57,441 nt of DNA from an uncultured Gammaproteobacteria bacterium (GCA_964387865.1 CAYLXC010000004.1:1-57441); one strand, 5' to 3'. Counted from the first letter of the stretch, positions 9,035-55,227 are shown. Notes: generated by a model from the letters alone, not told the origin. Made by a program: numbers and translations.

Positions 9035-9280
9035 TTATTTTAGTTGAAGTCTTTTCAAAAGTCCAACATACGCGGAACCAAATTGCTTAAGTTTCCTTTC
9101 GCGTATTATAGCTGCCTCCTCATTATTATATGCCTCATAATAGATGAGCTCGGGTTCAGACATTCTCTTAGTGGTATAAACTTTTTTATTTTTGTGCTCA
9201 CTCAAACGACGTTCTAAATTGTTCGAATAGCCAAAATACAGTTTATTTTTTCTGTCCTTTAAGATATAAACAAAATACAT
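9035..9280 (-). CDS. small GIY-YIG nuclease family protein
   Basis: MYFVYIL...LYFGYSNNLERRLSEH...LIYYEAY...AIIRERKLK; start moved to ATG 9280 because the longer ORF only translates the upstream palindrome. Confidence 0.9.
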   Translation of the reverse strand: MYFVYILKDRKNKLYFGYSNNLERRLSEHKNKKVYTTKRMSEPELIYYEAYNNEEAAIIRERKLKQFGSAYVGLLKRLQLK

Positions 9281-9294
9281 ACTTGATGTTTTGG

Positions 9295-9320
9295 ATCCCG
9301 CCCTTCGCGAAGGGCGGGAT
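9295..9320. repeat. perfect 26-bp palindrome (REP-like)
   Basis: ATCCCGCCCTTCG|CGAAGGGCGGGAT, 15 nt upstream of the GIY-YIG start. Confidence 0.9.
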
Positions 9321-17598: not shown

Positions 17599-19688
17599 GG
17601 TTTAGCTGACGTAGTTGCTTCCTCAAGCTTCTGTTTTGCTTCCAAATAGTCAGGTCTTAAATTTATAGCCTGCTTAAAAGCTTTAATTGCCTCATCTTTT
17701 TTATCCAAAGTCTCCAAAATTAGTGCCTTATTGTAATAGAGTTTTGGATCTGTAGGTGCAAGTTTTATCGCCTGATCCAAAGCTTTGAGTGTCTCATCAA
17801 CATATTTTTTATCCAAAGAAGAAAGTTCAAAATAAGTTCTTATGGCTGTTCTCCAAAAAGAGACATTATTTGGGCTCTGTTTTAAAACTGAATCCAAATG
17901 TTCTAAAGCTTCATCTTTCAAGACAGCTGATAAAGTTGCATCAATTTGTTCTAAAGCAGCAGATGCTGCAGCTGCTGAGTATGCAAGCTCACTTCTGTAG
18001 AATGGTTCATCTCTATTCAACTCCTTAGCAGCACTGAGCAGATTATATGCTTTTCCAGCGCTTCCTGCCTCAATAGCATTTTGCCCTTTTTTAAAAATAG
18101 TATCTGCATACCAAAGTTTGAAGATGGAAAATAGAAGATAGAGGGTTGTGAAGATAATAATACCTTTGGCAAATTTGGTGTAAAGAGGACGGCGGTAAAT
18201 AAGATGTAGTATGTAGTATGTAGTATGTAGTATGGATGGCAAAATTAGACCTTTGGTTTTAGGATTTGGATTAATTGTCAGCTTCAGCGGTTTAATGGAT
18301 TGAGTAAAAACAAAGGCCAAAGCTGGGAAAAGGTAAAAGAATATGGCAATTATGACTACAGAGAAAAGGAAGATATTATATATAAGGTAGGAGATATAAG
18401 AAGCAAGGAGAATGGGTATTAGGATATAAGGATATTGGGAAATATTTTTTCTCTTAATATCATAGTATCCTAGTATCGATTTTATGCTCCAAACTACAAA
18501 AGTTAAAATTACTATCATGTATGTGGTAAATCCTGCTAAACCAGTAGTAGCCAAATAGTTCAAATATTCATTGTGAGCTTTGTTATACAAAAAATCCCAC
18601 TCGGATGTTAAGTTATGGGCAGCGGGTCTAAATTGGTAATAAGAATAGGCAAAAGTTTCAACGCCTGATCCAAAAATAGGGTAATGTTTAAATATTTCCA
18701 AAGCTCCTTGCCAAACAATAAACCTGATTTGACCAGATTCTGTGCCACCTGTCTCAAGCTGGGTTCCTACTTGTTGTGTTAAAGAAATAACAGGTCTTGT
18801 AGGAGGAGAGAATTTGGAAATCAGTCTAAAACTGGTTAAAGCAGAACCAAAAAGAAGGTTAATTATAAGAAATGATCCAATAACGAGTAAAACTGGTTTT
18901 ACATTTCGATCCGCCAACTGACGAAGAGAAAATTCCTTTCGTTTGCGCTCGAAGAATAATAATAACCCTAGAAACACTGCCATTCCACAAATTAAACCCA
19001 ACGTAGGTCCCCTGGAATAAGTAAAGGTGAAAGCTAAGTAGTATGTAGTAAGTAGTATGTAGTAGGTAGTTAGGGATTTTCGGCTGGTGGCTGTGAGCAA
19101 AAAATAAAGAGCAGGAAAGATTAGCATGGAAAGGTATGCTGCAAGCCAATTAGGCTGGCCTAAGGTAGCAAATACTCTTTCCTGGACTCTTTGCACCCAG
19201 CAATCAGCATTAAATTCTCCTCTTAAAAACACACAGGATGGAGAAACTCCAAAATGCTCTGAAATTGCATAAAGGGAAATTATGAATCCTGATGCCAGCC
19301 CTACCTTTAGGAGTGTTAAAACCTTATCCTTATCCATGTTGGAAACAAAAGCCCAATATAATAATAGGTAGGTTACTGTGGATAAGAGTCCTCCGTTTAG
19401 TCTGGAATAATAACCCCAAATAGAAGTATGGGTATCAATTGAAAATATCGTAGATAAGATATTTGCGCCTAAAAAAAGTAATAACGGGATATCTAAAGGA
19501 GTCCGTTTAAATATGAATGTTTTCTCCTGGACCATTTTTAAAATCCAACATCCGACAATCAAAACAGTTATTCCATAAGCTAAATTCATCTTATTAAATT
19601 CAAAAAGTTCGTAATTTAAAGAAGTCCAAAAAAGAGGAGTTAGGAAAAAGAGAAGGTAGAAAGAATAGGTGATGACTTTATCCAGCAT
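17595..19688 (-). CDS. O-antigen ligase (Wzy_C)-like membrane protein with C-terminal TPRs
   Basis: ATLGQPNWLAAYL, TYSRG, RFIVWQGALEIFKHYPIFGSG, AHNEYLNYLATTG; C-terminal TPR-like helices. Confidence 0.85.
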   Translation of the reverse strand: MLDKVITYSFYLLFFLTPLFWTSLNYELFEFNKMNLAYGITVLIVGCWILKMVQEKTFIFKRTPLDIPLLLFLGANILSTIFSIDTHTSIWGYYSRLNGGLLSTVTYLLLYWAFVSNMDKDKVLTLLKVGLASGFIISLYAISEHFGVSPSCVFLRGEFNADCWVQRVQERVFATLGQPNWLAAYLSMLIFPALYFLLTATSRKSLTTYYILLTTYYLAFTFTYSRGPTLGLICGMAVFLGLLLFFERKRKEFSLRQLADRNVKPVLLVIGSFLIINLLFGSALTSFRLISKFSPPTRPVISLTQQVGTQLETGGTESGQIRFIVWQGALEIFKHYPIFGSGVETFAYSYYQFRPAAHNLTSEWDFLYNKAHNEYLNYLATTGLAGFTTYMIVILTFVVWSIKSILGYYDIKRKNISQYPYILIPILLASYISYLIYNIFLFSVVIIAIFFYLFPALAFVFTQSIKPLKLTINPNPKTKGLILPSILHTTYYILHLIYRRPLYTKFAKGIIIFTTLYLLFSIFKLWYADTIFKKGQNAIEAGSAGKAYNLLSAAKELNRDEPFYRSELAYSAAAASAALEQIDATLSAVLKDEALEHLDSVLKQSPNNVSFWRTAIRTYFELSSLDKKYVDETLKALDQAIKLAPTDPKLYYNKALILETLDKKDEAIKAFKQAINLRPDYLEAKQKLEEATTSAKP
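18204..18231. repeat. heptamer tandem array inside a CDS
   Basis: (ATGTAGT)x4, read as ILHTTYYILH. Confidence 0.9.
19036..19070. repeat. heptamer tandem array inside a CDS
   Basis: AAGTAGT ATGTAGT AAGTAGT ATGTAGT AGGTAGT, read as LTTYYILLTTYY. Confidence 0.9.
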
Positions 19689-28412: not shown

Positions 28413-29501
28413 ATGATTAAAAATATACCTTATCTTTTAGCGCTGCATTCTATAGTTGGTTTGGGGCCGGTGAGGCTTAAGGTTTTAATTGAGCATTTTA
28501 AAGATCCAAAAATTGCTTGGGAGGCAATATCCAAGGAACTTTTAAAAATAGGAATACCCAAAAATGTTGTTGATCTTTTGGTGGAAACACGAAATAATAT
28601 GGATCCCCAGACTTATGCTAATGATATCAGGGACGTAGGTATTAAATGGATAACTATATACGAAGAATCCTATCCCAACCTCCTGAAGCAAATTTATGAC
28701 CCGCCTATTGTTTTATATTACAAAGGCGTATTTCCAGTTGCTGGTGAAAAAGCCATAGCAGTTGTTGGAACAAGAAAAATGACAGGTTATGGAAAAATTG
28801 TGACAGACCAATTTACAAGGGAATTGGTTAATGCAGGATTAACAATCGTTTCAGGACTTGCCCGTGGGGTTGATAGTCAAGCTCATCTGAGTGCCCTTGA
28901 AGCAAATGGTAGAACTATTGCTATTTTAGGCGGAGGTTTAAATCAAATTTACCCTCCGGAAAATAGAGGATTGGCAGATAAAATTATCGATGGTCATGGT
29001 GCAATAATTTCTGAATTTCCTCCAGATTATCCCTCGCTTCCAGGTAACTTTCCTGCAAGAAATAGGATTATTTCAGGTCTTTCTTTGGCTGTTTTAGTAA
29101 CAGAGGCAGCAGAGGATTCAGGTTCTTTAATTACTGCAAGAGCTGCTGTGGAACAAGGCCGTGAAGTTTTTGCGGTACCAGGGCCAATAACATCTAATTT
29201 ATCAAAAGGTCCAATAGATTTAATCAAGGAAGGGGCAAAGCCTGTAACTGAAGTAGAGGAAATATTGGAAGAACTGGGAATAAGTAAAGTTAAAAGTTCA
29301 AAGTTAAAAATTCAAAGTGAAATAGAAGTATCTGAAAGTGAGAAGAAGATTTTGGATTGTTTGGAAAATGAGAATAGACATATTGATGAAATCTGTAGAA
29401 ATTTGAATTTATCAGCATCTCTTGTTTCAGCCAATTTATTAAAAATGGAAATTGCCGGATTAGTTCAAAACTTGGGAAGCGGTAACTATTGCAAAACATG
29501 A
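28413..29501 (+). CDS. dprA: DNA-processing protein DprA
   Basis: IAVVGTR, IVSGLARGVD, FPARNRIISGLS, GSLITA, VFAVPG; C-terminal winged helix. Confidence 0.97.
   Translation: MIKNIPYLLALHSIVGLGPVRLKVLIEHFKDPKIAWEAISKELLKIGIPKNVVDLLVETRNNMDPQTYANDIRDVGIKWITIYEESYPNLLKQIYDPPIVLYYKGVFPVAGEKAIAVVGTRKMTGYGKIVTDQFTRELVNAGLTIVSGLARGVDSQAHLSALEANGRTIAILGGGLNQIYPPENRGLADKIIDGHGAIISEFPPDYPSLPGNFPARNRIISGLSLAVLVTEAAEDSGSLITARAAVEQGREVFAVPGPITSNLSKGPIDLIKEGAKPVTEVEEILEELGISKVKSSKLKIQSEIEVSESEKKILDCLENENRHIDEICRNLNLSASLVSANLLKMEIAGLVQNLGSGNYCKT
29286..29318. repeat. heptamer array in the dprA interdomain linker
   Basis: AAAGTTA AAAGTTC AAAGTTA AAAATTC AAAGT, read as KVKSSKLKIQS. Confidence 0.75.
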
Positions 29502-33234: not shown

Positions 33235-35325
33235 ATGAATAATTTAGTAATTGTTGAATCCCCTACAAAGGCAAGGACACTTGCACGTTTTTTGGGTAAT
33301 GGTTATAAAATTGAGGCCTCAATGGGCCATGTGAGAGATTTGCCAAGATCTGATTTTGGGGTGGATATTGAGAAAGATTTTGAACCCCAATATGTAATCC
33401 CGCGTGATAAAAAGAAAATGGTAAATCGGCTAAAAAAAGAGGCTGAAGGTGCTGATACTCTTTGGCTGGCAACAGATCCTGACAGGGAGGGTGAAGCAAT
33501 AGCATGGCATATCTCCCAGATTATCGGAAGTCGGAAATCAGAAGTCGGAAAATCCGAAATCCGAAATCCGAAATCCGAAATTAGGCGTGTTGTATTCCAT
33601 GAAATAACAGAGGAAGCAATCAAAGAGGCTTTTAAAAACCCCCGTGTTATTGATCTAAAACTTGTTGATGCACAGCAGGCAAGAAGAGTTTTGGATAGGC
33701 TGGTTGGATACAAATTATCTCCCTTACTTTGGCAAAAGATTAAAAAAGGTTTATCTGCAGGTCGGGTTCAATCAGTTGCTTTAAGATTAATTGTTGAGAG
33801 AGAAAAAGAAATAAAGGCTTTCAAGACAGAGGAATATTGGCTTATTGAGGCTGAATTAGAGTCAAGAGTCAACCGTCGAGAGTCAAGATTTTTGGCAACT
33901 TTAATTGAGCAAAATGGGAAAAAGCTGGAGATTAAAAATAAGAAAGAAGCTGATGGACATGTTAAAAACTTAGAAAAGGCAGATTACATTGTTTCAAAAG
34001 TAACGCAAAAGGAAGTTAGAAGATATCCGTATCCTCCGTTTACCACCTCAACTTTGCAGCAAGCAGGTGCCAATAGATTAGGAATGTCTGCAAAAAAAAC
34101 TATGATGCTTGCTCAAAACTTATATGAAAGAGGACTTATAACTTATATGAGAACAGATTCTTTTAATTTATCTCAAAGCGCAATTTTGGGAGTTAGAGCA
34201 TACATTGCAAATTTTATTGGAAAATCATATTTACCAAATGCGCCGAGAATTTTTAAATCAAAATCTAGAAATGTTCAGGAAGCTCATGAGGCAATACGGG
34301 TAACAGATGTCGGACGTCAGCAATCGGATATCAGACAAGATAATGGATTAAATAGAGACCATGTAAGATTATATGATCTTATTTGGAAAAGATTTGTGGC
34401 ATGTCAGATGAGCGAGGCGGTTTTGGATCAGACTACTATTGATGTCCAAGCTCACCTCCGAGGTGAAGCTACGGAGACTCCTGGATCACACCTCGGAGGT
34501 GTTGGCTATTTGCTCAGAGCCACAGGTTCTGTTATTAAATTTGATGGCTGGTTGAAACTGTATGGTAAAGATATAGAAGATGTAGGAGAAGAAAAAAAGC
34601 AAGCACTACCTTCTCTCTCAGAGAACCAACAACTAAACCTAATCCAACTTTTGCCTTCTCAGCATTTCACAGAACCTCCACCGCGGTACACCGAAGCAAC
34701 CTTAATTAAAAAACTTGAGGAATTGGGGATTGGCAGGCCTTCCACTTATGCCCCAATTCTTTCGACAATCCAGGAGAGATTTTACGTTGAAAAATTGGAG
34801 CGAAAATTTATCCCAACCAGTTTAGGCCTTGCTGTTACAGATTTTTTGGTCAAGTATTTTCCAAATATTATCGATTATACATTTACAGCCCAAATGGAGG
34901 ATGAGCTGGATGAAATTTCAAGAGGAGAAAGGGAGTGGAAACCAACAATAAGGGAATTTTATGAGCCATTTGAAAAAAAGTTAGCAGAAACTTCAGAGGT
35001 GGCACAAAAAGTAAAGATGGAGTTGGAAAAGGTAGATAAAAAATGTCCTGTTTGCGGAAGGGATTTGGTTATAAGAATTGGTAGATTTGGGAAGTTTTTA
35101 GCATGCAGTGGTTTTCCGGAGTGTAAGCATACGGAAAGTTTGGAGGAAAAAATAAATGCCAAATGCCCGCAAGATGGTGGGGAAATAGTAATCAGAAAAA
35201 CAAGAAGAGGAAAAACTTTTTACGGCTGCAAAAACTGGCCAGTCTGTAAATTTGCATCATGGACCAAGCCAAAAGCTGAAAAACCAGAACCCGTCATTGC
35301 GAGCCCCGAAGGGGCGAAGCAGTGA
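33235..35325 (+). CDS. topA: DNA topoisomerase I
   Basis: NLVIVESPTK, LATDPDREGE, SAGRVQS, LITYMRTD, GIGRPSTY; C-terminal Zn ribbons; start ATG 33235. Confidence 0.98.
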   Translation: MNNLVIVESPTKARTLARFLGNGYKIEASMGHVRDLPRSDFGVDIEKDFEPQYVIPRDKKKMVNRLKKEAEGADTLWLATDPDREGEAIAWHISQIIGSRKSEVGKSEIRNPKSEIRRVVFHEITEEAIKEAFKNPRVIDLKLVDAQQARRVLDRLVGYKLSPLLWQKIKKGLSAGRVQSVALRLIVEREKEIKAFKTEEYWLIEAELESRVNRRESRFLATLIEQNGKKLEIKNKKEADGHVKNLEKADYIVSKVTQKEVRRYPYPPFTTSTLQQAGANRLGMSAKKTMMLAQNLYERGLITYMRTDSFNLSQSAILGVRAYIANFIGKSYLPNAPRIFKSKSRNVQEAHEAIRVTDVGRQQSDIRQDNGLNRDHVRLYDLIWKRFVACQMSEAVLDQTTIDVQAHLRGEATETPGSHLGGVGYLLRATGSVIKFDGWLKLYGKDIEDVGEEKKQALPSLSENQQLNLIQLLPSQHFTEPPPRYTEATLIKKLEELGIGRPSTYAPILSTIQERFYVEKLERKFIPTSLGLAVTDFLVKYFPNIIDYTFTAQMEDELDEISRGEREWKPTIREFYEPFEKKLAETSEVAQKVKMELEKVDKKCPVCGRDLVIRIGRFGKFLACSGFPECKHTESLEEKINAKCPQDGGEIVIRKTRRGKTFYGCKNWPVCKFASWTKPKAEKPEPVIASPEGAKQ
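33524..33582. repeat. inverted heptamer arrays inserted in frame in topA
   Basis: TCGGAAG TCGGAAA TCAGAAG TCGGAAA then (ATCCGAA)x4; read as GSRKSEVGKSEIRNPKSEI. Confidence 0.92.
33859..33888. repeat. heptamer array in topA
   Basis: GAGTCAA GAGTCAA CCGTCGA GAGTCAA, read as ESRVNRRESR. Confidence 0.75.
34308..34336. repeat. degenerate heptamer array in topA
   Basis: TGTCGGA CGTCAGC AATCGGA TATCAGA, read as VGRQQSDIR. Confidence 0.6.
34453..34501. repeat. 13-bp inverted repeat element inserted in frame in topA
   Basis: CACCTCCGAGGTG (34453-34465) and its exact reverse complement CACCTCGGAGGTG (34489-34501); read as HLRGEATETPGSHLGGV. Confidence 0.9.
35293..35323 (+). repeat. GTCAT-type REP-like element forming the topA C-terminus
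   Basis: GTCATTGCGAGCCCCGAAGGGGCGAAGCAGT, read as VIASPEGAKQ*. Confidence 0.75.
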
Positions 35326-50995: not shown

Positions 50996-52171
50996 ATGAT
51001 AAGTAAAAATATCCTTAAACAACCTAAATCTATAGTTGAAGTTACAGTTACTGTACCTTGGACAGATTTGGAAAATACCTGGAACACGACTCTTCAGAAA
51101 ATGGCTTCTGATGTAGAACTACCTGGATTTAGAAAAGGTGCAGCTCCCCTTCCCATGGTTGAACAAAACCTTGGGATAAAACTTCAAGATGAGGTTCTAA
51201 AAGTATCCATGCCTAATTTTTTAATAGAGGCATTAAAGGGCACTGATATTGTCCCTATAGATTATCCGAAATATGACTTAATTTCTTTTGTTAAAGGACA
51301 ACAGCTTCAATTTAAAGCAACTATTACAAACAGGCCTGCCGTGACAGTAGGCAATTATAAAACTATAAAAGCAACAAGACCTCTATTAAAAAGTGTTACA
51401 GATGAGGAAGTAAATAAGGTTATTGATGATTTATATAAAAGGTGGAAAGTAAGAAATCCTGTAACACAATCTTCAGTCAACAGCTCGCTTCGCGAAGCGA
51501 GTCCACAGTCAACAGACAAAACAGGTGGTCAAGGTGGATCCATAAGTTTCCAGGGTGGTCCTTCGACCCGTTCGGATGCCTCAGGGCAAGCTGGCTCAGG
51601 ATCTTCGGGACAACAGCAACAAACAGTCCCAACTAATGGGCAAGCTGAAGGTCCCAATGATACTTTTGCCAAAGCCATGGGAGCCATTTCCCTTTCTGAT
51701 TTAAAAGAAAAGGTAAGAAAAGATCTGGAAGCAAATGTTAAATATAATAATGAATTGGATTATGAAGAAGCAATCTTGCAAGAGGTTGAAAAAATTACAA
51801 CTGTTGAACTCCCTGATATTTTAATCCAGGATGAATTAAATAGGATGTTGGTTTCTTTACAAAGAAGAGTGGCTGACATGGGACTACTTTTGGAAGATTA
51901 CTTGAAAGGACAGGGTAAAACTTTGGATCAGCTGAAAAATGAATGGAGAACTCAGGCAGAAAAAAATGTAAGAATGGAACTGGGGCTTGCAGAGATTGCA
52001 AGGCAGGAGAATGTGGCAATTTCAGATGCAGAACTTCAAGCAGAGGTGGACAAAATTCAAGACGGGAAGGTTAAAAAACAATTTGAGGCACAAGAACCAA
52101 GGTTACATCTAAGGCATGCATTAAGACAAACTAGAACATTAGACCTATTAAAAAAGATGGTAGGAGGGTAG
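50996..52171 (+). CDS. tig: trigger factor lacking the FKBP/PPIase domain
   Basis: Ribosome-binding PGFRKGAAP; C-terminal helical domain (LPDILIQDEL); the middle is a G/S/Q/T linker containing repeats. Confidence 0.9.
   Translation: MISKNILKQPKSIVEVTVTVPWTDLENTWNTTLQKMASDVELPGFRKGAAPLPMVEQNLGIKLQDEVLKVSMPNFLIEALKGTDIVPIDYPKYDLISFVKGQQLQFKATITNRPAVTVGNYKTIKATRPLLKSVTDEEVNKVIDDLYKRWKVRNPVTQSSVNSSLREASPQSTDKTGGQGGSISFQGGPSTRSDASGQAGSGSSGQQQQTVPTNGQAEGPNDTFAKAMGAISLSDLKEKVRKDLEANVKYNNELDYEEAILQEVEKITTVELPDILIQDELNRMLVSLQRRVADMGLLLEDYLKGQGKTLDQLKNEWRTQAEKNVRMELGLAEIARQENVAISDAELQAEVDKIQDGKVKKQFEAQEPRLHLRHALRQTRTLDLLKKMVGG
51474..51517. repeat. composite CAGTCAA heptamer + 18-bp palindrome element in tig
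   Basis: CAGTCAA CAG CTCGCTTCG|CGAAGCGAG TCCA CAGTCAA CAGAC; 30 nt identical to 54722-54751. Confidence 0.95.
51560..51603. repeat. degenerate REP-like element in tig
   Basis: CCTTCGAC...CTCAGGGCAAG...GCTCAGGATC; reverse-complement relative of the GTCATCCTGAGC..GTCGAAGG family. Confidence 0.6.
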
Positions 52172-52172
52172 G

Positions 52173-52502
52173 ATGGATTGTATCTTCTGTAAGATTGTTA
52201 ACAAAGAGATTCCAAAAGAGTTTGACTACGAATCCAAGAGCTTAGTGGTTTTTCCTGATATTAATCCATCAGCAGATATTCATCTTTTGATTGTGCCAAA
52301 AAAGCACATTAATGGAATGAAAGAGATCGGGGAGGAACATTCTAATTTACTGGCAGAAGTTTACAGAGTGGTGAGTAAGCTGGTTGAGGAAAATAATTTA
52401 CAGGATGATCTTTATAGGGTTGTTGTAAATGGAGGAAGAGCTCAACATGTGCCCCATTTACATTTTCATCTTTTAGGTGGACAATGGAAAAAGATGGTTT
52501 AA
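52173..52502 (+). CDS. HIT-family nucleotide hydrolase
   Basis: MDCIFCKI, HLLIVPKKH, QHVPHLHFHLLGG. Confidence 0.95.
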   Translation: MDCIFCKIVNKEIPKEFDYESKSLVVFPDINPSADIHLLIVPKKHINGMKEIGEEHSNLLAEVYRVVSKLVEENNLQDDLYRVVVNGGRAQHVPHLHFHLLGGQWKKMV

Positions 52503-52525
52503 AAGGAGGTGTTTTTTAATTCAAA

Positions 52526-52723
52526 ATGTCAATAATAGTTAAAGCTAATCCTGGAGATTCTACAGATTCTGTTATCAGAAAATTTCAAAAAAAAGTTGTT
52601 GCTGAAGGTTTGGTTCAAGAAATTAGGGACAGGTATGTTTATAAAAAACCTTCACAACGCCGTCAGGAATATTTGGCAGAGAAAAGACGGAAAATAATGA
52701 GAGCCAGAAGGTATGGTGGATGA
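52526..52723 (+). CDS. rpsU: 30S ribosomal protein S21
   Basis: DSVIRKFQKKV...EIRDRYVYKKPSQRR; in the hit-rpsU-yqeY context. Confidence 0.88.
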   Translation: MSIIVKANPGDSTDSVIRKFQKKVVAEGLVQEIRDRYVYKKPSQRRQEYLAEKRRKIMRARRYGG

Positions 52724-53177
52724 AAAGATGTTGCTTGAGAGACTACAAGAAGATTTAAAGCAGGCACAACTTGCAAAAGATGAAGTAAAGATTTCTACTT
52801 TAAGGCTTCTAATCTCTGAAATACATAATGGTGAAATCCAAAAAGGTGGCACTTTAGAAGACCGGGAAATAATTTCAGTTGTGCAACGGGAGGCTAAAAA
52901 AAGAAAAGAAGCCGCGGCAGGCTTTAGGCAGGGTCAAAGAGAAGAACAAGCTCAAAAAGAAGAAGCAGAACTTAAAATATTGGAAAGTTACTTGCCATCT
53001 CAGCTTTCAAATGAGGAATTGACTAAAATAGTTGAAGATACTATAAATGAATTAGGGGCCAATTCTTTGCAAGATATGGGTAAGGTTATGGGTACAGTTA
53101 TGGGGAAGGTTAAAGGACAGACAGATGGAGAAGTGGTAAGTGGGATTGTTAGAGAGAAACTAACTACAAATTTATGA
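52713..53177 (+). CDS. yqeY: GatB/YqeY domain protein
   Basis: LRLLISEI, EAKKRKEA, YLPSQLS, DMGKVMG. Confidence 0.92.
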   Translation: MVDEKMLLERLQEDLKQAQLAKDEVKISTLRLLISEIHNGEIQKGGTLEDREIISVVQREAKKRKEAAAGFRQGQREEQAQKEEAELKILESYLPSQLSNEELTKIVEDTINELGANSLQDMGKVMGTVMGKVKGQTDGEVVSGIVREKLTTNL

Positions 53178-53584
53178 TAAATATCATTGTTTCATCTGAT
53201 CCAAGATATCAAATCAATAAAACGGCAATAAGATCGGCAGTCTTTATGGCTTTACAAAAGCATCGTATTGGGGGAAAAGTTGAGCTTGGCATAAATATTA
53301 TTGGCGATCGAAAAATGCATGAGCTCAATAAAAAATACAGAGGAATTGATTCAACAACAGATATCTTATCTTTTGCACTCGAGGATCCAAATCCCGCAAG
53401 CTTACAACATATCCCAAGAATCGGTTTTATTTCAGCTCCTGATAGGTGGTTAAGACTTGGGGATATTGTAATTTCCTATCCGCAAGCTTTAGAAGATGCT
53501 GCTTTGGATGGAATATCCGTTGATGAGGAAATTAGAGATTTGGTTGAACATGGTGTGAATCACCTATTAGGAATCCATCACTAA
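53174..53584 (+). CDS. ybeY: rRNA maturation endoribonuclease YbeY
   Basis: LNKKYRGID..TDILSF, LGDIVIS, HGVNHLLGIHH. Confidence 0.92.
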   Translation: MINIIVSSDPRYQINKTAIRSAVFMALQKHRIGGKVELGINIIGDRKMHELNKKYRGIDSTTDILSFALEDPNPASLQHIPRIGFISAPDRWLRLGDIVISYPQALEDAALDGISVDEEIRDLVEHGVNHLLGIHH

Positions 53585-55227
53585 TGACTGCTTATTATTT
53601 AAAGTATAGGCCTCAAAGTTTGGAGGAGCTGATCGGTCAAGAGCCGGTCAAAAAAATCCTGCTTTCAGCTTTTCAAGAAAATAGATTATCTCATGCTTAT
53701 CTTTTTGTCGGACCAAGAGGGACAGGTAAGACCTCAACAGCAAGGATTTTAGCAAAGATGGTTAATTGCGAAATCGTAAATCGTAAATCGTTAATCGTTA
53801 ATCGTGAAAACAAAAACGATAATCGATATCCGATAACCGATATACCGTGTAATAAATGCTCCACATGTTTGTCAATCACTGATGGATCAAACCTTGATCT
53901 TATTGAAATTGATGCTGCATCCAATAGGGGAATTGAAGATATCCGCGCCCTTCGTGAGAAAATAAAGCTTGCACCAACTAATGCAAAAAAGAAAGTTTAC
54001 ATAATTGATGAGGTGCATATGTTAACCACAGAGGCTTTTAACGCTCTTTTAAAGACTTTGGAAGAACCTCCGGCGCATGCTCTATTTGTTTTGGCAACAA
54101 CAGATGTTAATAAGGTTCCTCAAACAATTCTTTCAAGGGTACAAAGGTTAGATTTCAAGTTTGCAAGAGCTTCCGAGTTGATGGAAGCCTTAATAAAAAT
54201 TGCAAGAGAGGAAAAAATTGATATTGATGAAGAAGCGCTTAAATTACTGATTAGAAAATCAGAAGGATCATTTCGGGATGGTGTTAAACTTTTGGATCAA
54301 GTCTCATCAATTGAAGGTAAAATTACTAAAGAAACTTTGGAGAAGAGTCTAAAGTCATCTAATTTTGATGACATTTCCGATTTAATAAAATATTTTTCCA
54401 AAAAAGACACAAAAGAGGGTTTATCCATAGTATTGGAAATGGTGGAGAATGGAGCAGATATTAAAGAAACAGTATTATCTTTGATGGACGTACTAAGAAA
54501 TTTGGTATTTATAAAAAATGAGTTGGGAGAACAATTGGTAAAACCTCAAATGGTTGAGGAAAAATATGTAGAACTTATGGCACTATCAGAAACTTTCTCT
54601 AATCATGATTTGGTTAGAATCTTGGAAATCTTACAAAAGGTTAATGAGAAATTTAGATTTGCATCAATTCCGTCACTACCATTAGAGTTGGCTGTGGTTG
54701 AAATTTGTGGGGAACAGTCAACAGTCAACAGCTCGCTTCGCGAAGCGAGTCTACAGTCTACCATAAATTCGGAAAAATCACAGGACAAGATAAAATCAGA
54801 TAAATTAGAAGATGAGAAGCTTGTCTCGGGCGAATCTCTACTAAGCGCAGTCGAAGGGCCACATCCCACATCAAATTCTGACATAGTTATACTTAAGGAA
54901 AAATGGACTTTTGTTTTGGAAACTGTCCGTCCCTTAAATTTTTCTTTGGAAGCACTTTTAAGATCAATTAACTTGACAGAGTGTACGGATACAACAGTAA
55001 TCCTGGAAGTTCCATATTCTTTTCATCAAAGAATTTTGGAAGCCCCCAAAAATAGGGATTTATTAGAGTCAATTCTTTCCGATATTTTAGGAAGAAGCAT
55101 TAGGGTTTCAACTGTTTTGGGAAATAGGCCAACAAGAAAAGAAGATATTGCAAATGTTGAAGTTGCACAAGATGATGAAATAATCCGTGTAGCCGCAGAA
55201 ATCTTTAACTCAGACTCCATAAATTAA
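53584..55227 (+). CDS. dnaX: DNA polymerase III subunit gamma/tau
   Basis: KYRPQ, GPRGTGKTS, EIDAASNRG, IIDEVHML, AFNALLKTLEEP. Confidence 0.97.
   Translation: MTAYYLKYRPQSLEELIGQEPVKKILLSAFQENRLSHAYLFVGPRGTGKTSTARILAKMVNCEIVNRKSLIVNRENKNDNRYPITDIPCNKCSTCLSITDGSNLDLIEIDAASNRGIEDIRALREKIKLAPTNAKKKVYIIDEVHMLTTEAFNALLKTLEEPPAHALFVLATTDVNKVPQTILSRVQRLDFKFARASELMEALIKIAREEKIDIDEEALKLLIRKSEGSFRDGVKLLDQVSSIEGKITKETLEKSLKSSNFDDISDLIKYFSKKDTKEGLSIVLEMVENGADIKETVLSLMDVLRNLVFIKNELGEQLVKPQMVEEKYVELMALSETFSNHDLVRILEILQKVNEKFRFASIPSLPLELAVVEICGEQSTVNSSLREASLQSTINSEKSQDKIKSDKLEDEKLVSGESLLSAVEGPHPTSNSDIVILKEKWTFVLETVRPLNFSLEALLRSINLTECTDTTVILEVPYSFHQRILEAPKNRDLLESILSDILGRSIRVSTVLGNRPTRKEDIANVEVAQDDEIIRVAAEIFNSDSIN
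53772..53843. repeat. inverted heptamer arrays inserted in frame in the DnaX zinc module
   Basis: AATCGTA x2, AATCGTT x2, AATCGTG; 9-nt spacer; ACGATAA TCGATAT CCGATAA CCGATAT. Confidence 0.93.
54715..54761. repeat. composite CAGTCAA heptamer + 18-bp palindrome element in dnaX
   Basis: CAGTCAA CAGTCAA CAG CTCGCTTCGCGAAGCGAG TCTA CAGTCTAC. Confidence 0.95.

What the first reader, a model, noticed from the sequence alone, without database searches (positions are those of the whole stretch)
51474..54761. Identical 30-nt composite element in tig and dnaX, in the same reading frame
Seen: CAGTCAACAGCTCGCTTCGCGAAGCGAGTC occurs at 51474-51503 (tig) and 54722-54751 (dnaX), read as VNSSLREAS in both. 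It is a perfect 18-bp palindrome embedded in CAGTCAA heptamers on both sides. Inference: exact identity in unrelated genes 3.2 kb apart implies recent copying, and it physically links the heptamer arrays with the palindromic REP-like family, suggesting one mobilisation mechanism.
Basis: partly seen in the sequence, partly recalled or inferred. Interest (0 to 1): 0.72.

Follow-up and report, generated by a model that had tools for sequence, protein, structure and literature searches.

The report
18-bp mobile palindrome inside essential genes
The sequence shared by the trigger-factor and DnaX genes is an 18-base perfect palindrome, a tiny dispersed insertion element of Daviesbacteria (candidate-phyla bacteria), which landed separately in two older 7-base repeat tracts and adds exactly six amino acids to floppy protein linkers.

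Summary
The 30-mer is exact at 51474-51503 (tig) and 54722-54751 (dnaX), and both copies are read as VNSSLREAS.

The repeated unit is not the 30-mer. It is the 18-bp palindrome CTCGCTTCGCGAAGCGAG (P).
- P has 9 exact copies plus variants in this 954-kb Daviesbacteria genome, in S17, L4, tig, DnaX, RecG, PolA and elsewhere.
- P occurs in 13 of 61 sampled genera of the family, and in no other family or virus collection.
- Orthologs lack exactly six codons at P sites. The tig and dnaX orthologs still carry the CAGTCNN heptamer array, so the arrays are older and P came later.
- The other 12 identical bases follow from insertion at the same point (CAG^TC) of look-alike arrays.
- P adds exactly 18 nt with no target duplication and sits next to a G at 38 of 39 sites.
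- P prefers heptamer arrays and REP-like hairpins.
- At sites shared between genera, P stays 97% identical while the flanks are about 72% identical.

The mobilising enzyme is unknown. Eight RAYT-like and five small GIY-YIG genes exist, but none is linked to P.

P is a new variant of known tiny or in-frame palindromic repeats (SDR, RPE, REP).

The parts
51484..51501 (.). Copy of the 18-bp palindrome P (CTCGCTTCGCGAAGCGAG) in the tig linker. It is read S-L-R-E-A-S and lies in residues 163-169.
   Evidence: Tig orthologs lack exactly these 6 codons. The linker (residues 157-216) has pLDDT < 50.
54732..54749 (.). Copy of P in the DnaX linker, between domain III and the C-terminal domain. It is read S-L-R-E-A-S.
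   Evidence: Pfam places domain III up to residue 377 and DnaX_C from residue 436. The linker is hypervariable in 60 orthologs.
51467..51519 (+). Pre-existing five-unit CAGTCNN heptamer array in tig (CAATCTT CAGTCAA CAG^TCCA CAGTCAA CAGACAA), interrupted by P after CAG of unit 3.
   Evidence: The same five-unit array, without P, is at the same position in L035, L036 and L037. Deleting exactly 18 nt restores the heptamer register.
54715..54760 (+). Pre-existing CAGTCNN heptamer array in dnaX (CAGTCAA CAGTCAA CAG^TCTA CAGTCTA), interrupted by P at the same point of the unit.
   Evidence: The orthologous array directly after GGGGAA is empty in L040 and carries a different 44-nt hairpin insert in L039.
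50996..52171 (+). tig (trigger factor), with Trigger_N at residues 5-146 and Trigger_C at residues 232-386. It has no PPIase domain. It is the host gene of copy 1.
53584..55227 (+). dnaX (DNA polymerase III gamma/tau subunit), the host gene of copy 2.

Best explanation
P (CTCGCTTCGCGAAGCGAG) is an ultra-small, non-autonomous, templated insertion element confined to one family of Candidatus Daviesbacteria.

Shown:
- The tig and dnaX copies are two independent insertions of the same 18-nt unit.
- They went into older CAGTCNN heptamer arrays that already lay in disordered inter-domain linkers.
- Each insertion adds exactly 18 nt (6 codons) and leaves no target-site duplication.
- P sits directly 3' of a G on one strand.
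- It strongly prefers DNA that is itself repetitive or hairpin-forming: heptamer arrays, REP-like hairpins at ATTCCYG^C, and other small hairpins.
- It is tolerated in essential genes because its length is a multiple of three, it has no stop codon in any frame on either strand, and its landing pads are floppy linkers or tails.

Inferred, not shown:
- Copying acts in trans on a single-stranded hairpin form of P (a 7-bp stem with a CGCG loop).
- The enzyme would be structure-specific and encoded elsewhere in the genome. The most plausible candidates are one of the eight RAYT-like Y1 (HUH) transposase homologs, which act without target duplication, or one of the five ~80-aa GIY-YIG nucleases.
- The near-perfect conservation of P across genera and at shared sites reflects the sequence specificity of that machinery, through re-insertion, homogenisation or precise excision. 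It does not reflect a host function.
For: Copy number and distribution:
- There are 9 exact copies and 4 variant copies in the genome.
- Hosts confirmed by Pfam are S17, L4, tig, DnaX, RecG, PolA, DinB, a GT2 glycosyltransferase and PheT.
- P occurs in 13 of 61 sampled genera of the family and in 0 of 40 genomes of other families.
- Across 185,579 species, every low-GC hit belongs to this family. The rest are single hits in GC-rich genomes.
- There are 0 hits in viral contigs and 44 further low-GC sites in metagenomes.

Empty sites:
- 119 tig homologs lack SLREAS, and the alignment shows a clean 6-residue gap.
- At DNA level the heptamer array is retained without P.
- Orthologs in this genome show exact 18-nt or 6-codon gaps at the P sites of relatives. 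Examples are PheS, GatA, MltG, a YebC-like gene, DnaE and a Mur ligase.

No duplication, exact length:
- Deleting exactly 18 nt restores the heptamer register at 13 sites, in at least 8 different array types. Other deletion sizes do so at about 1 site.
- Deleting P restores 8-4-8 REP hairpins.

Target rule:
- A G is adjacent at 38 of 39 distinct sites (chance 0.33, P about 1e-17) and at 42 of 44 metagenome sites.
- 13 of 41 sites lie in arrays, which make up no more than 0.6% of the genome.

Templated copying and conservation:
- The same asymmetric variant CCCGCTTCGCGAGGCGAG occurs in two genes.
- At four sites shared between genera, 70 of 72 P bases are identical while the flanks are about 72% identical (P about 3e-7).

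Tolerance and candidate enzymes:
- The tig linker (residues 157-216) has pLDDT < 50, and the dnaX linker is hypervariable.
- Eight Y1_Tnp genes and five small GIY-YIG genes are present.
Against: - No enzyme is linked to P. Each of the eight Y1 genes is flanked by its own, different hairpins.
- Y1 genes are present in all 13 genomes that have P, but also in 41 of 49 that lack it (Fisher P = 0.19).
- 276 kb of metagenomic DNA around P contains no GIY-YIG motif, and only one HUH motif, 4.7 kb away.
- Only one of the five GIY-YIG genes in this genome (contig C24) lies near a P copy.
- An 18-nt perfect palindrome has no distinguishable left and right ends, unlike every characterised IS200/IS605-type substrate (established knowledge).
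- The enrichment in arrays and linkers could partly reflect survival of insertions at permissive sites, not targeting.
- Conservation at shared sites would also fit a host function.
Confidence: 0.68

Rival explanations
1. Ectopic gene conversion or recombination between look-alike CAGTCNN arrays copied a composite segment of 30-48 nt (array plus palindrome) from one gene to the other. This is essentially the first reader's reading. On this view no dedicated insertion mechanism is needed.
For: - All six P copies of this genome that lie in CAGTCNN arrays sit at the same point, CAG^TC.
- The tig and dnaX copies share 30 nt and are 90% identical over 48 nt.
- Copies come in nearby pairs: tig/dnaX are 3.2 kb apart and S17/L4 are 4.1 kb apart. 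The clustering is weak (my Poisson estimate, not a tool result: P about 0.08).
Against: - The arrays are orthologous and older than P.
- The variable NN positions next to P differ among the six copies, so no flank was co-converted. The single AA match is expected by chance (0.66).
- In relatives, P lies in at least 8 unrelated array types, in REP loops and in non-repeat sites. These share no homology that could guide conversion.
Confidence: 0.1
2. P is a maintained cis-acting site, for example the operator-like binding site of a dimeric, lineage-specific DNA-binding protein (chromosome organisation, like parS or matS) or an RNA hairpin. Its copies would then be kept by selection, not by selfish spread.
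For: - P is a perfect 18-bp dyad present at about 1-9 copies per genome.
- It is letter-identical in 13 genera.
- It is 97% conserved at orthologous sites whose flanks are about 72% identical.
- Few decayed copies exist: 9 exact copies against 4 variants with up to 4 mismatches.
Against: - The distribution is patchy. Sister genera differ, and only 13 of 61 genera have it.
- Sites are not conserved between most genomes. The tig and dnaX sites are unique to this lineage.
- Copies lie inside other repeats and in arbitrary protein linkers.
- One copy is itself split by another hairpin in RecG without apparent harm.
- There is no Rfam match.
Confidence: 0.15
3. The repeat is an assembly or sequencing artefact (a chimeric join or adapter-like palindrome), or it arose independently at each site by local hairpin or slippage processes.
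For: Perfect palindromes can arise from library artefacts, and read support could not be checked here.
Against: - The same 18-mer is found in frame, at defined sites, in many independent assemblies from different studies and assemblers.
- It always leaves long ORFs intact.
- Identical sequence at more than 60 sites, and shared asymmetric variants, cannot arise de novo.
Confidence: 0.02

Closest known systems
Small dispersed repeats (SDR1-8) of Nostocaceae, some nested in STRR heptanucleotide arrays (Elhai et al. 2008, Genome Res 18:1484). The paper is not held here, so it is cited from my own knowledge and from mentions in PMC3116915 and PMC5861425.
   Same: - Both are very short hairpin-forming repeats, far below MITE size.
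- Both are dispersed and are inferred to be mobile from filled-versus-empty sites.
- Both nest inside other repeats, including 7-nt tandem arrays.
- Neither has a linked transposase.
- Both are confined to one lineage.
   Different: - P is smaller (18 nt against 21-27 nt) and is a perfect palindrome.
- P occurs in a non-photosynthetic CPR bacterium with a genome of about 1 Mb.
- Most P copies lie in frame inside essential protein genes.
- A single-base target rule (G^) and sequence conservation across genera are documented here.
- There is no sequence similarity between the two.
Rickettsia palindromic elements (RPE), described as 'selfish DNA in protein-coding genes' (Ogata et al. 2000, as summarised in PMC10969869).
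   Same: - Both are palindromic repeats inserted in frame into many unrelated housekeeping genes of a reduced genome.
- Both are translated as extra peptide segments that are compatible with protein function.
   Different: - RPEs are about 100-150 bp and encode a conserved peptide. P is 18 bp and is read in all three frames.
- RPE ends carry a CGTC tag (PMC3733652). P has no such tag.
REP/REPIN elements with RAYT (Y1 HUH) transposases, including intragenic REPs (PMC3116915; Di Nocera et al. 2013, PMC3733652).
   Same: - Both are short GC-rich hairpins in an AT-rich genome with no target duplication.
- Some REPs lie inside replication and repair genes.
- RAYT-like genes are abundant in this genome (8 copies).
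- CGTC-type REPs likewise lack a dedicated flanking transposase.
   Different: - P has no GTAG or CGTC tag and is a perfect, loop-less palindrome.
- It has about 9 copies, not hundreds.
- It is not organised as doublets.
- It does not flank any Y1 gene.
- It inserts into REP-like hairpins instead of being one of them.
IS200/IS605-family single-strand 'peel and paste' transposition and its non-autonomous derivatives (established knowledge).
   Same: - The substrate forms a hairpin.
- Insertion is directly 3' of a short target motif, without duplication.
- Precise loss would restore the target. This fits the patchy presence of P at shared sites.
   Different: - Known elements need distinct left and right end hairpins with guide sequences, and a 4-5 nt target. 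P is a single symmetric hairpin with a 1-nt target rule.
- No activity has been shown.

Membership tests
REP / REPIN-RAYT (REPtron) | An imperfect palindrome carrying a conserved GTAG (or CGTC) tetranucleotide tag at one end. | tested here: not met
   P is a perfect 18-bp palindrome. Apart from a single G, the flanks at 39 sites show no conserved tag.
REP / REPIN-RAYT (REPtron) | Copies flank the cognate RAYT gene. | tested here: not met
   All eight Y1 genes of the genome are flanked by other hairpins. Only one HUH motif, 4.7 kb away, lies in 276 kb around metagenomic P copies.
REP / REPIN-RAYT (REPtron) | Abundant, mainly extragenic, and often arranged as inverted doublets. | tested here: not met
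   There are 9-13 copies per genome and most lie inside genes. All are single units.
MITE | Terminal inverted repeats plus a target-site duplication, with a size of about 50-500 bp. | tested here: not met
   P is 18 bp. The net gain is exactly 18 nt with no duplication.
Rickettsia palindromic elements (RPE) | An element of about 100-150 bp that encodes a conserved peptide and is inserted in frame. | tested here: not met
   In-frame insertion is met. Size and a single conserved reading frame are not: the frames count 15 SLREA, 6 RFAKR and 6 LASRSE.
Small dispersed repeats (SDR) of Nostocaceae | Dispersed hairpin repeats of 21-27 nt, shown to be insertions by empty sites and nested in other repeats, including heptamer arrays. 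| tested here: inconclusive
   The behaviour matches: empty sites, nesting in arrays, and no linked gene. Size (18 nt), sequence and host lineage differ. The defining paper could not be read.
IS200/IS605-type single-strand transposable DNA | Insertion 3' of a fixed short target, without duplication. | tested here: met
   A G lies directly 5' of P on at least one strand at 38 of 39 and at 42 of 44 sites, with no duplication.
IS200/IS605-type single-strand transposable DNA | Distinct left-end and right-end hairpins recognised by a Y1 transposase, with demonstrated cleavage and strand transfer. | not testable with these tools
   P is a single symmetric hairpin. Testing activity requires biochemistry.
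Small GIY-YIG cassette with an associated palindrome (pattern from earlier notes of this scan, unpublished) | The palindrome sits beside an ~80-aa GIY-YIG gene lodged at a tRNA gene. | tested here: not met
   Five such genes exist in the genome, three of them next to tRNA genes, but only the copy on contig C24 has P nearby. No GIY-YIG gene lies near P in relatives or metagenomes. P is absent from viral contigs.

The most novel reading that the evidence does not exclude
P would be among the smallest mobile DNA units known: an 18-nt self-complementary oligonucleotide.
- A structure-specific enzyme acting in trans (a RAYT-like Y1 or a mini GIY-YIG nuclease) would paste it 3' of a G at stem-loop or array junctions, and perhaps cut it out again precisely, without any target duplication.
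- Its exact sequence would have been held constant across at least 13 genera by the specificity of that enzyme.
- Together with the roughly 31-nt heptamer arrays, it would form a layered system (array contains hairpin contains hairpin) that continually writes 6-9 extra residues into linkers of essential proteins in CPR bacteria.
Probability: 0.3. Interest if true: 0.8.

Novelty: new variant of a known kind. Interest (0 to 1): 0.58.

Why it matters
- P pushes down the known size limit of templated, dispersed insertion elements. It is 18 bp, has no gene, leaves no duplication and needs only a one-base target.
- Ribosomal proteins, the clamp loader, trigger factor, RecG and Pol I of an ultra-reduced genome all tolerate repeated in-frame insertions. 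Repeat DNA is therefore a steady source of linker and loop variation in CPR proteomes.
- For practice, such inserts explain odd low-complexity segments and length variation in CPR orthologs. They can also mislead alignment, annotation and assembly.
- The clean filled and empty pairs, and the G^ rule, give a concrete substrate for testing the many unexplained RAYT-like and mini GIY-YIG genes of Patescibacteria.

Tried and rejected
2. Elhai et al. 2008 (SDR) could not be read by DOI or PMC id. One literature search was wasted on STRR/'STRRIDE' hits. A search for CPR plus palindromic in-frame repeats found nothing relevant.
3. RAYT link: presence of Y1_Tnp does not discriminate between genomes with and without P, and no Y1 gene is flanked by P.
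4. GIY-YIG link:
   - The 26-bp palindrome upstream of the window's GIY-YIG gene (9295-9320) shares only the 10-bp core CTTCGCGAAG with P.
   - Its 16-nt core hits only GC-rich phage coding DNA by chance.
   - No GIY-YIG gene lies near P outside contig C24.
5. Strand bias of the G-side relative to the coding strand: 13 against 9, no signal.
6. Rfam: no family matches the region.
7. Phylogenetic clustering of P-positive genera on a tig tree: there is only coarse enrichment (11 of 32 against 2 of 29, P = 0.012). At fine scale the distribution is patchy (11 changes against 11.9 in shuffles). Vertical and horizontal spread therefore could not be separated.
8. Viral carriage: 0 hits.


Full report
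**1. The observation**

The 30-mer CAGTCAACAGCTCGCTTCGCGAAGCGAGTC is present exactly twice in the window, at 51474-51503 and 54722-54751. No copy appeared in 100 shuffles.

The first copy lies in tig (50996-52171; Pfam Trigger_N at residues 5-146 and Trigger_C at residues 232-386). The second lies in dnaX (53584-55227). Both are read VNSSLREAS.

The core CTCGCTTCGCGAAGCGAG, called P here, is a perfect 18-bp palindrome. It is flanked by 7-nt units:
- tig: CAATCTT CAGTCAA CAG[P]TCCA CAGTCAA CAGACAA
- dnaX: CAGTCAA CAGTCAA CAG[P]TCTA CAGTCTA

The window is contig C4 of a 954-kb, 35.7% GC assembly in 42 contigs. Homolog names place it in Candidatus Daviesbacteria, within Microgenomates/CPR.

**2. 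The repeated unit is 18 nt, not 30**

In the whole genome P occurs 9 times exactly. There is also one 1-mismatch copy, two copies of the same asymmetric variant CCCGCTTCGCGAGGCGAG, and one copy split by a second hairpin.

| Host or context | Evidence |
|---|---|
| C-terminal tail of ribosomal protein S17 | |
| A loop of ribosomal protein L4 | |
| tig and dnaX linkers | |
| RecG, just after the wedge-domain match | |
| PolA inter-domain linker | |
| A large surface protein | |
| The leader of serS | |
| An intergenic heptamer hairpin | |
| Variants in DinB, a GT2 enzyme and PheT | |

Six copies lie in CAGTCNN/CAGACNN arrays, always as CAGTCNNCAG[P]TCNNCAG. The variable NN bases differ from copy to copy.

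The 12 extra bases shared by tig and dnaX are therefore the constant skeleton of this array family plus one matching NN (AA). Among six arrays, the chance that some pair shares NN is 0.66.

**3. The arrays are older and P is a later, exact 18-nt insertion**

*tig.* None of the other 119 tig homologs listed contains SLREAS, and the aligned subset shows a clean six-residue gap there. At DNA level, three orthologs at 75-81% protein identity carry the same five-unit array at the same place without P. An example is L035: CAGTCGT CAGTCAT CAGCAAT CAGTCAT CAGACAA.

*dnaX.* The linker is hypervariable, but the array directly after GGGGAA is orthologous. It is empty in L040. In L039 it is interrupted at the equivalent point by an unrelated 44-nt hairpin.

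*The reverse comparison.* At P sites of other genera, this genome's orthologs show clean 6-codon gaps. At DNA level:
- PheS: ACT AGA AAC here against ACT GG[P]A AAC.
- MltG: ATT^CAG inside an orthologous AATTCAG array.
- GatA: inside a CACCTCNGAGGTG hairpin.
- A YebC-like gene: GGG^GGA.
- Also DnaE, a Mur ligase and others.

*Register and hairpin restoration.* Across 41 sites, deleting exactly 18 nt restores the heptamer register at 13 sites, in at least 8 different array types. Other deletion sizes do so at about 1 site. Deleting P from REP-type sites restores a normal 8-4-8 hairpin, for example ATTCCTGC ATTC GCAGGAAT. The insertion point there is always ATTCCYG^C.

There is no target-site duplication.

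**4. Target preference**

- 38 of 39 distinct exact-P sites have a G directly 5' of P on at least one strand. Chance expectation is 0.33, giving P about 1e-17.
- 42 of 44 further sites from metagenome contigs obey the same rule.
- No preference is seen at positions -2 to -6.
- Period-7 arrays dominate the tandem repeats of this genome. There are 84 arrays with at least 3 copies and score at least 40, against 0 in shuffles. 44 of the 84 are 30-32 nt long, and 60 of 84 lie inside long ORFs.
- These arrays cover no more than 0.6% of the DNA but hold about a third of P sites (P about 1e-19).
- Many of the remaining sites lie in other small hairpin families (REP-like ATTCCCGC-N4-GCGGGAAT, CACCTCCAAGG-type, and a 27-nt CCCGCTTCGCCCGCGAAGCGAGGCGAG element). 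This gives nested, Russian-doll arrangements.

**5. Distribution and conservation**

- At up to 1 mismatch, P occurs in 13 of 61 sampled genera of the family and in 0 of 40 genomes of other families of the class.
- In one genome per species for 185,579 species, all low-GC hits belong to this family. Some carry misleading record titles. The other 25 hits are single occurrences in GC-rich genomes, as chance predicts.
- P is absent from 2.9 million viral contigs.
- On a tig tree, P-positive genera are enriched in one clade (11 of 32 against 2 of 29, P = 0.012) but are patchy within it.
- Four insertion sites are shared by two genera each. There P is 70/72 identical while the 60-nt flanks are 64-80% identical (P about 3e-7). 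This genome's orthologs of three of those genes lack P.
- P also sits at another position of the tig linker in a different genus (G056), and in the DnaX zinc loop of a metagenomic ortholog.
- So the sequence of P is held constant by something other than protein-level selection, and sites are gained or lost at the genus scale.

**6. Why essential genes tolerate it**

- P is 18 nt, which is 6 codons.
- It has no stop codon in any frame. Because it is a palindrome, the three frames are the same on both strands: SLREA, LASRSE and RFAKR.
- All three frames are used, at 15, 6 and 6 sites (P = 0.05 for bias).
- In tig, P lies in the Trigger_N to Trigger_C linker. This linker replaces the PPIase domain and is predicted disordered (pLDDT < 50 for residues 157-216).
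- In DnaX, P lies between domain III and the C-terminal domain, in a region with no conserved length or sequence.

**7. Mechanism**

*Shown:*
- Copying of a fixed 18-nt unit from a template, because shared asymmetric variants exist.
- Exact insertion without duplication.
- A G^ rule.
- A preference for repeat or hairpin DNA.
- No linked gene.

*Inferred:*
- Mobilisation acts in trans on a single-stranded hairpin (7-bp stem, CGCG loop, -6.8 kcal/mol as DNA).

*Candidate enzymes:*
- The genome encodes eight RAYT-like Y1 (HUH) proteins of about 230 aa. Such genes occur in 54 of 62 family genomes. Each is flanked by its own cognate hairpins, not by P.
- The genome also encodes five GIY-YIG proteins of 80-95 aa. 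Three lie next to tRNA genes and one lies 17 nt from a P copy.
- Neither class is enriched near P in relatives or metagenomes.
- HUH single-strand transposition is the known chemistry that best fits 'hairpin, short 3' target, no duplication, precise loss'. However, P lacks distinct ends.
- I therefore rate 'discrete trans-mobilised insertion element' at about 0.68, and leave the enzyme open.

**8. Rivals**

- Gene conversion of a composite unit: contradicted by the older orthologous arrays and the differing flanks.
- A selected binding site: fits the conservation, but not the patchiness, the arbitrary sites, or the copy that is itself interrupted.
- An artefact: excluded by the many independent assemblies.

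**9. Comparison with known systems**

- The closest behaviour is that of the cyanobacterial small dispersed repeats nested in heptamer arrays (Elhai 2008; not readable here).
- The in-frame lifestyle resembles Rickettsia RPEs (PMC10969869) and intragenic REPs (PMC3733652).
- P fails the defining features of REP/REPIN, MITE and RPE. See the membership table.
- Earlier AI notes of this scan describe the same class in other Microgenomates. I used them as leads only and re-derived each claim here.

**10. Verdict**

P is a new variant of known tiny or in-frame palindromic repeats. It is of moderate to high interest because of its size, its precision and its conservation. The mobilising enzyme is not resolved.

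Noticed in passing
window 53771-53843: dnaX carries a second repeat insert. Five AAATCGT units and an inverted CGATATC-type array lie in the zinc-module loop, read ...IVNRKSLIVNRENKNDNRYPITD... A metagenomic DnaX (P0210) has P itself in the same loop.
   Followed up: partly
whole genome (e.g. window 18204-18234, 19038-19070, 29286-29322, 33523-33581): Period-7 tandem arrays dominate the genome's tandem repeats. There are 84 strong arrays against 0 in shuffles. Array length peaks sharply at 30-32 nt (44 of 84), and 60 of 84 lie inside long ORFs.
   Followed up: partly
G000 contigs C26 7612-8310, C1 3494-4144, C1 34201-34893, C14 18172-18846, C8 18208-18903, C36 2221-2880, C5 45102-45770, C27 712-1122: There are eight paralogous RAYT-like Y1 (HUH) genes of about 230 aa in a 954-kb genome. 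Each is bracketed by its own pair of short hairpins, for example TGCACCCCTGGGGTGCA. The family occurs in 54 of 62 genomes of the family, with up to 12 copies.
   Followed up: partly
window 9035-9320; also G000 C5 25603-25854, C19 12471-12710, C24 4634-4915, C32 6886-7125: There are five GIY-YIG genes of 80-95 aa. Three lie next to tRNA genes. The window copy abuts tRNA-Trp and has a perfect 26-bp palindrome ATCCCGCCCTTCGCGAAGGGCGGGAT 40 nt upstream. The C32 copy lies between a duplicated tRNA 5' end interrupted by CCCCGCTaAGCGGGG and the apparent start of a tRNA-like sequence.
   Followed up: partly
G000 C15 13443-15782 (polA), C1 114801-115667 (rplD), C5 21704-23152 (dinB): REP-like hairpins of the ATTCCCGC-N4-GCGGGAAT / ATCCCCGC-N4-GCGGGGAT family (at least 20 copies, often in pairs) also lie within protein-coding ORFs. 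Recurring peptides such as RRDPSS, DPRLRGDD and IPAKAGIH in these proteins look like their translations, but that link was judged by eye only.
   Followed up: no
G000 C14 24460-24500 (recG): The RecG copy of P is itself interrupted by a 21-nt GC-rich hairpin (GAAGCCACGCCGGAGGCGGGC, with a 5-nt boundary ambiguity GAAGC). This nested insert is again a multiple of three. No second copy of it was found in this genome.
   Followed up: partly
G000 C19 540-570 (pheT), C12 19068-19097; loci L064, L252, L275: A related 27-nt element CCCGCTTCGCC(C/T)GCGAAGCGAGGCGAG has the same stem as P plus a short loop. It occurs in PheT here. In other Daviesbacteria it lies inside AACTTTG heptamer arrays with P nested inside it, so array contains element contains P.
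   Followed up: no
window 50996-52171: Daviesbacteria trigger factor has no PPIase domain. Trigger_N and Trigger_C are joined by a low-complexity linker of about 70 residues, predicted disordered, whose length varies from genus to genus (proteins of 332-417 aa).
   Followed up: partly
locus L039 (GCA_016184225.1 dnaX linker): The orthologous CAGTCNT array of another Daviesbacterium is split after CAGTC by a 44-nt insert that contains the palindrome CGAGGATCCTCG, and the array then resumes. This shows that the same landing pad is used by different hairpins.
   Followed up: no
loci L046, L053, L068, L081 (genome contigs): Several records titled 'uncultured Gammaproteobacteria' (binchicken co-assemblies) have 37-44% GC. 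Their P sites and flanking sequence are the same as those of family-f1 genomes G049, G008, G018 and G014. Their record titles therefore look taxonomically wrong.
   Followed up: no
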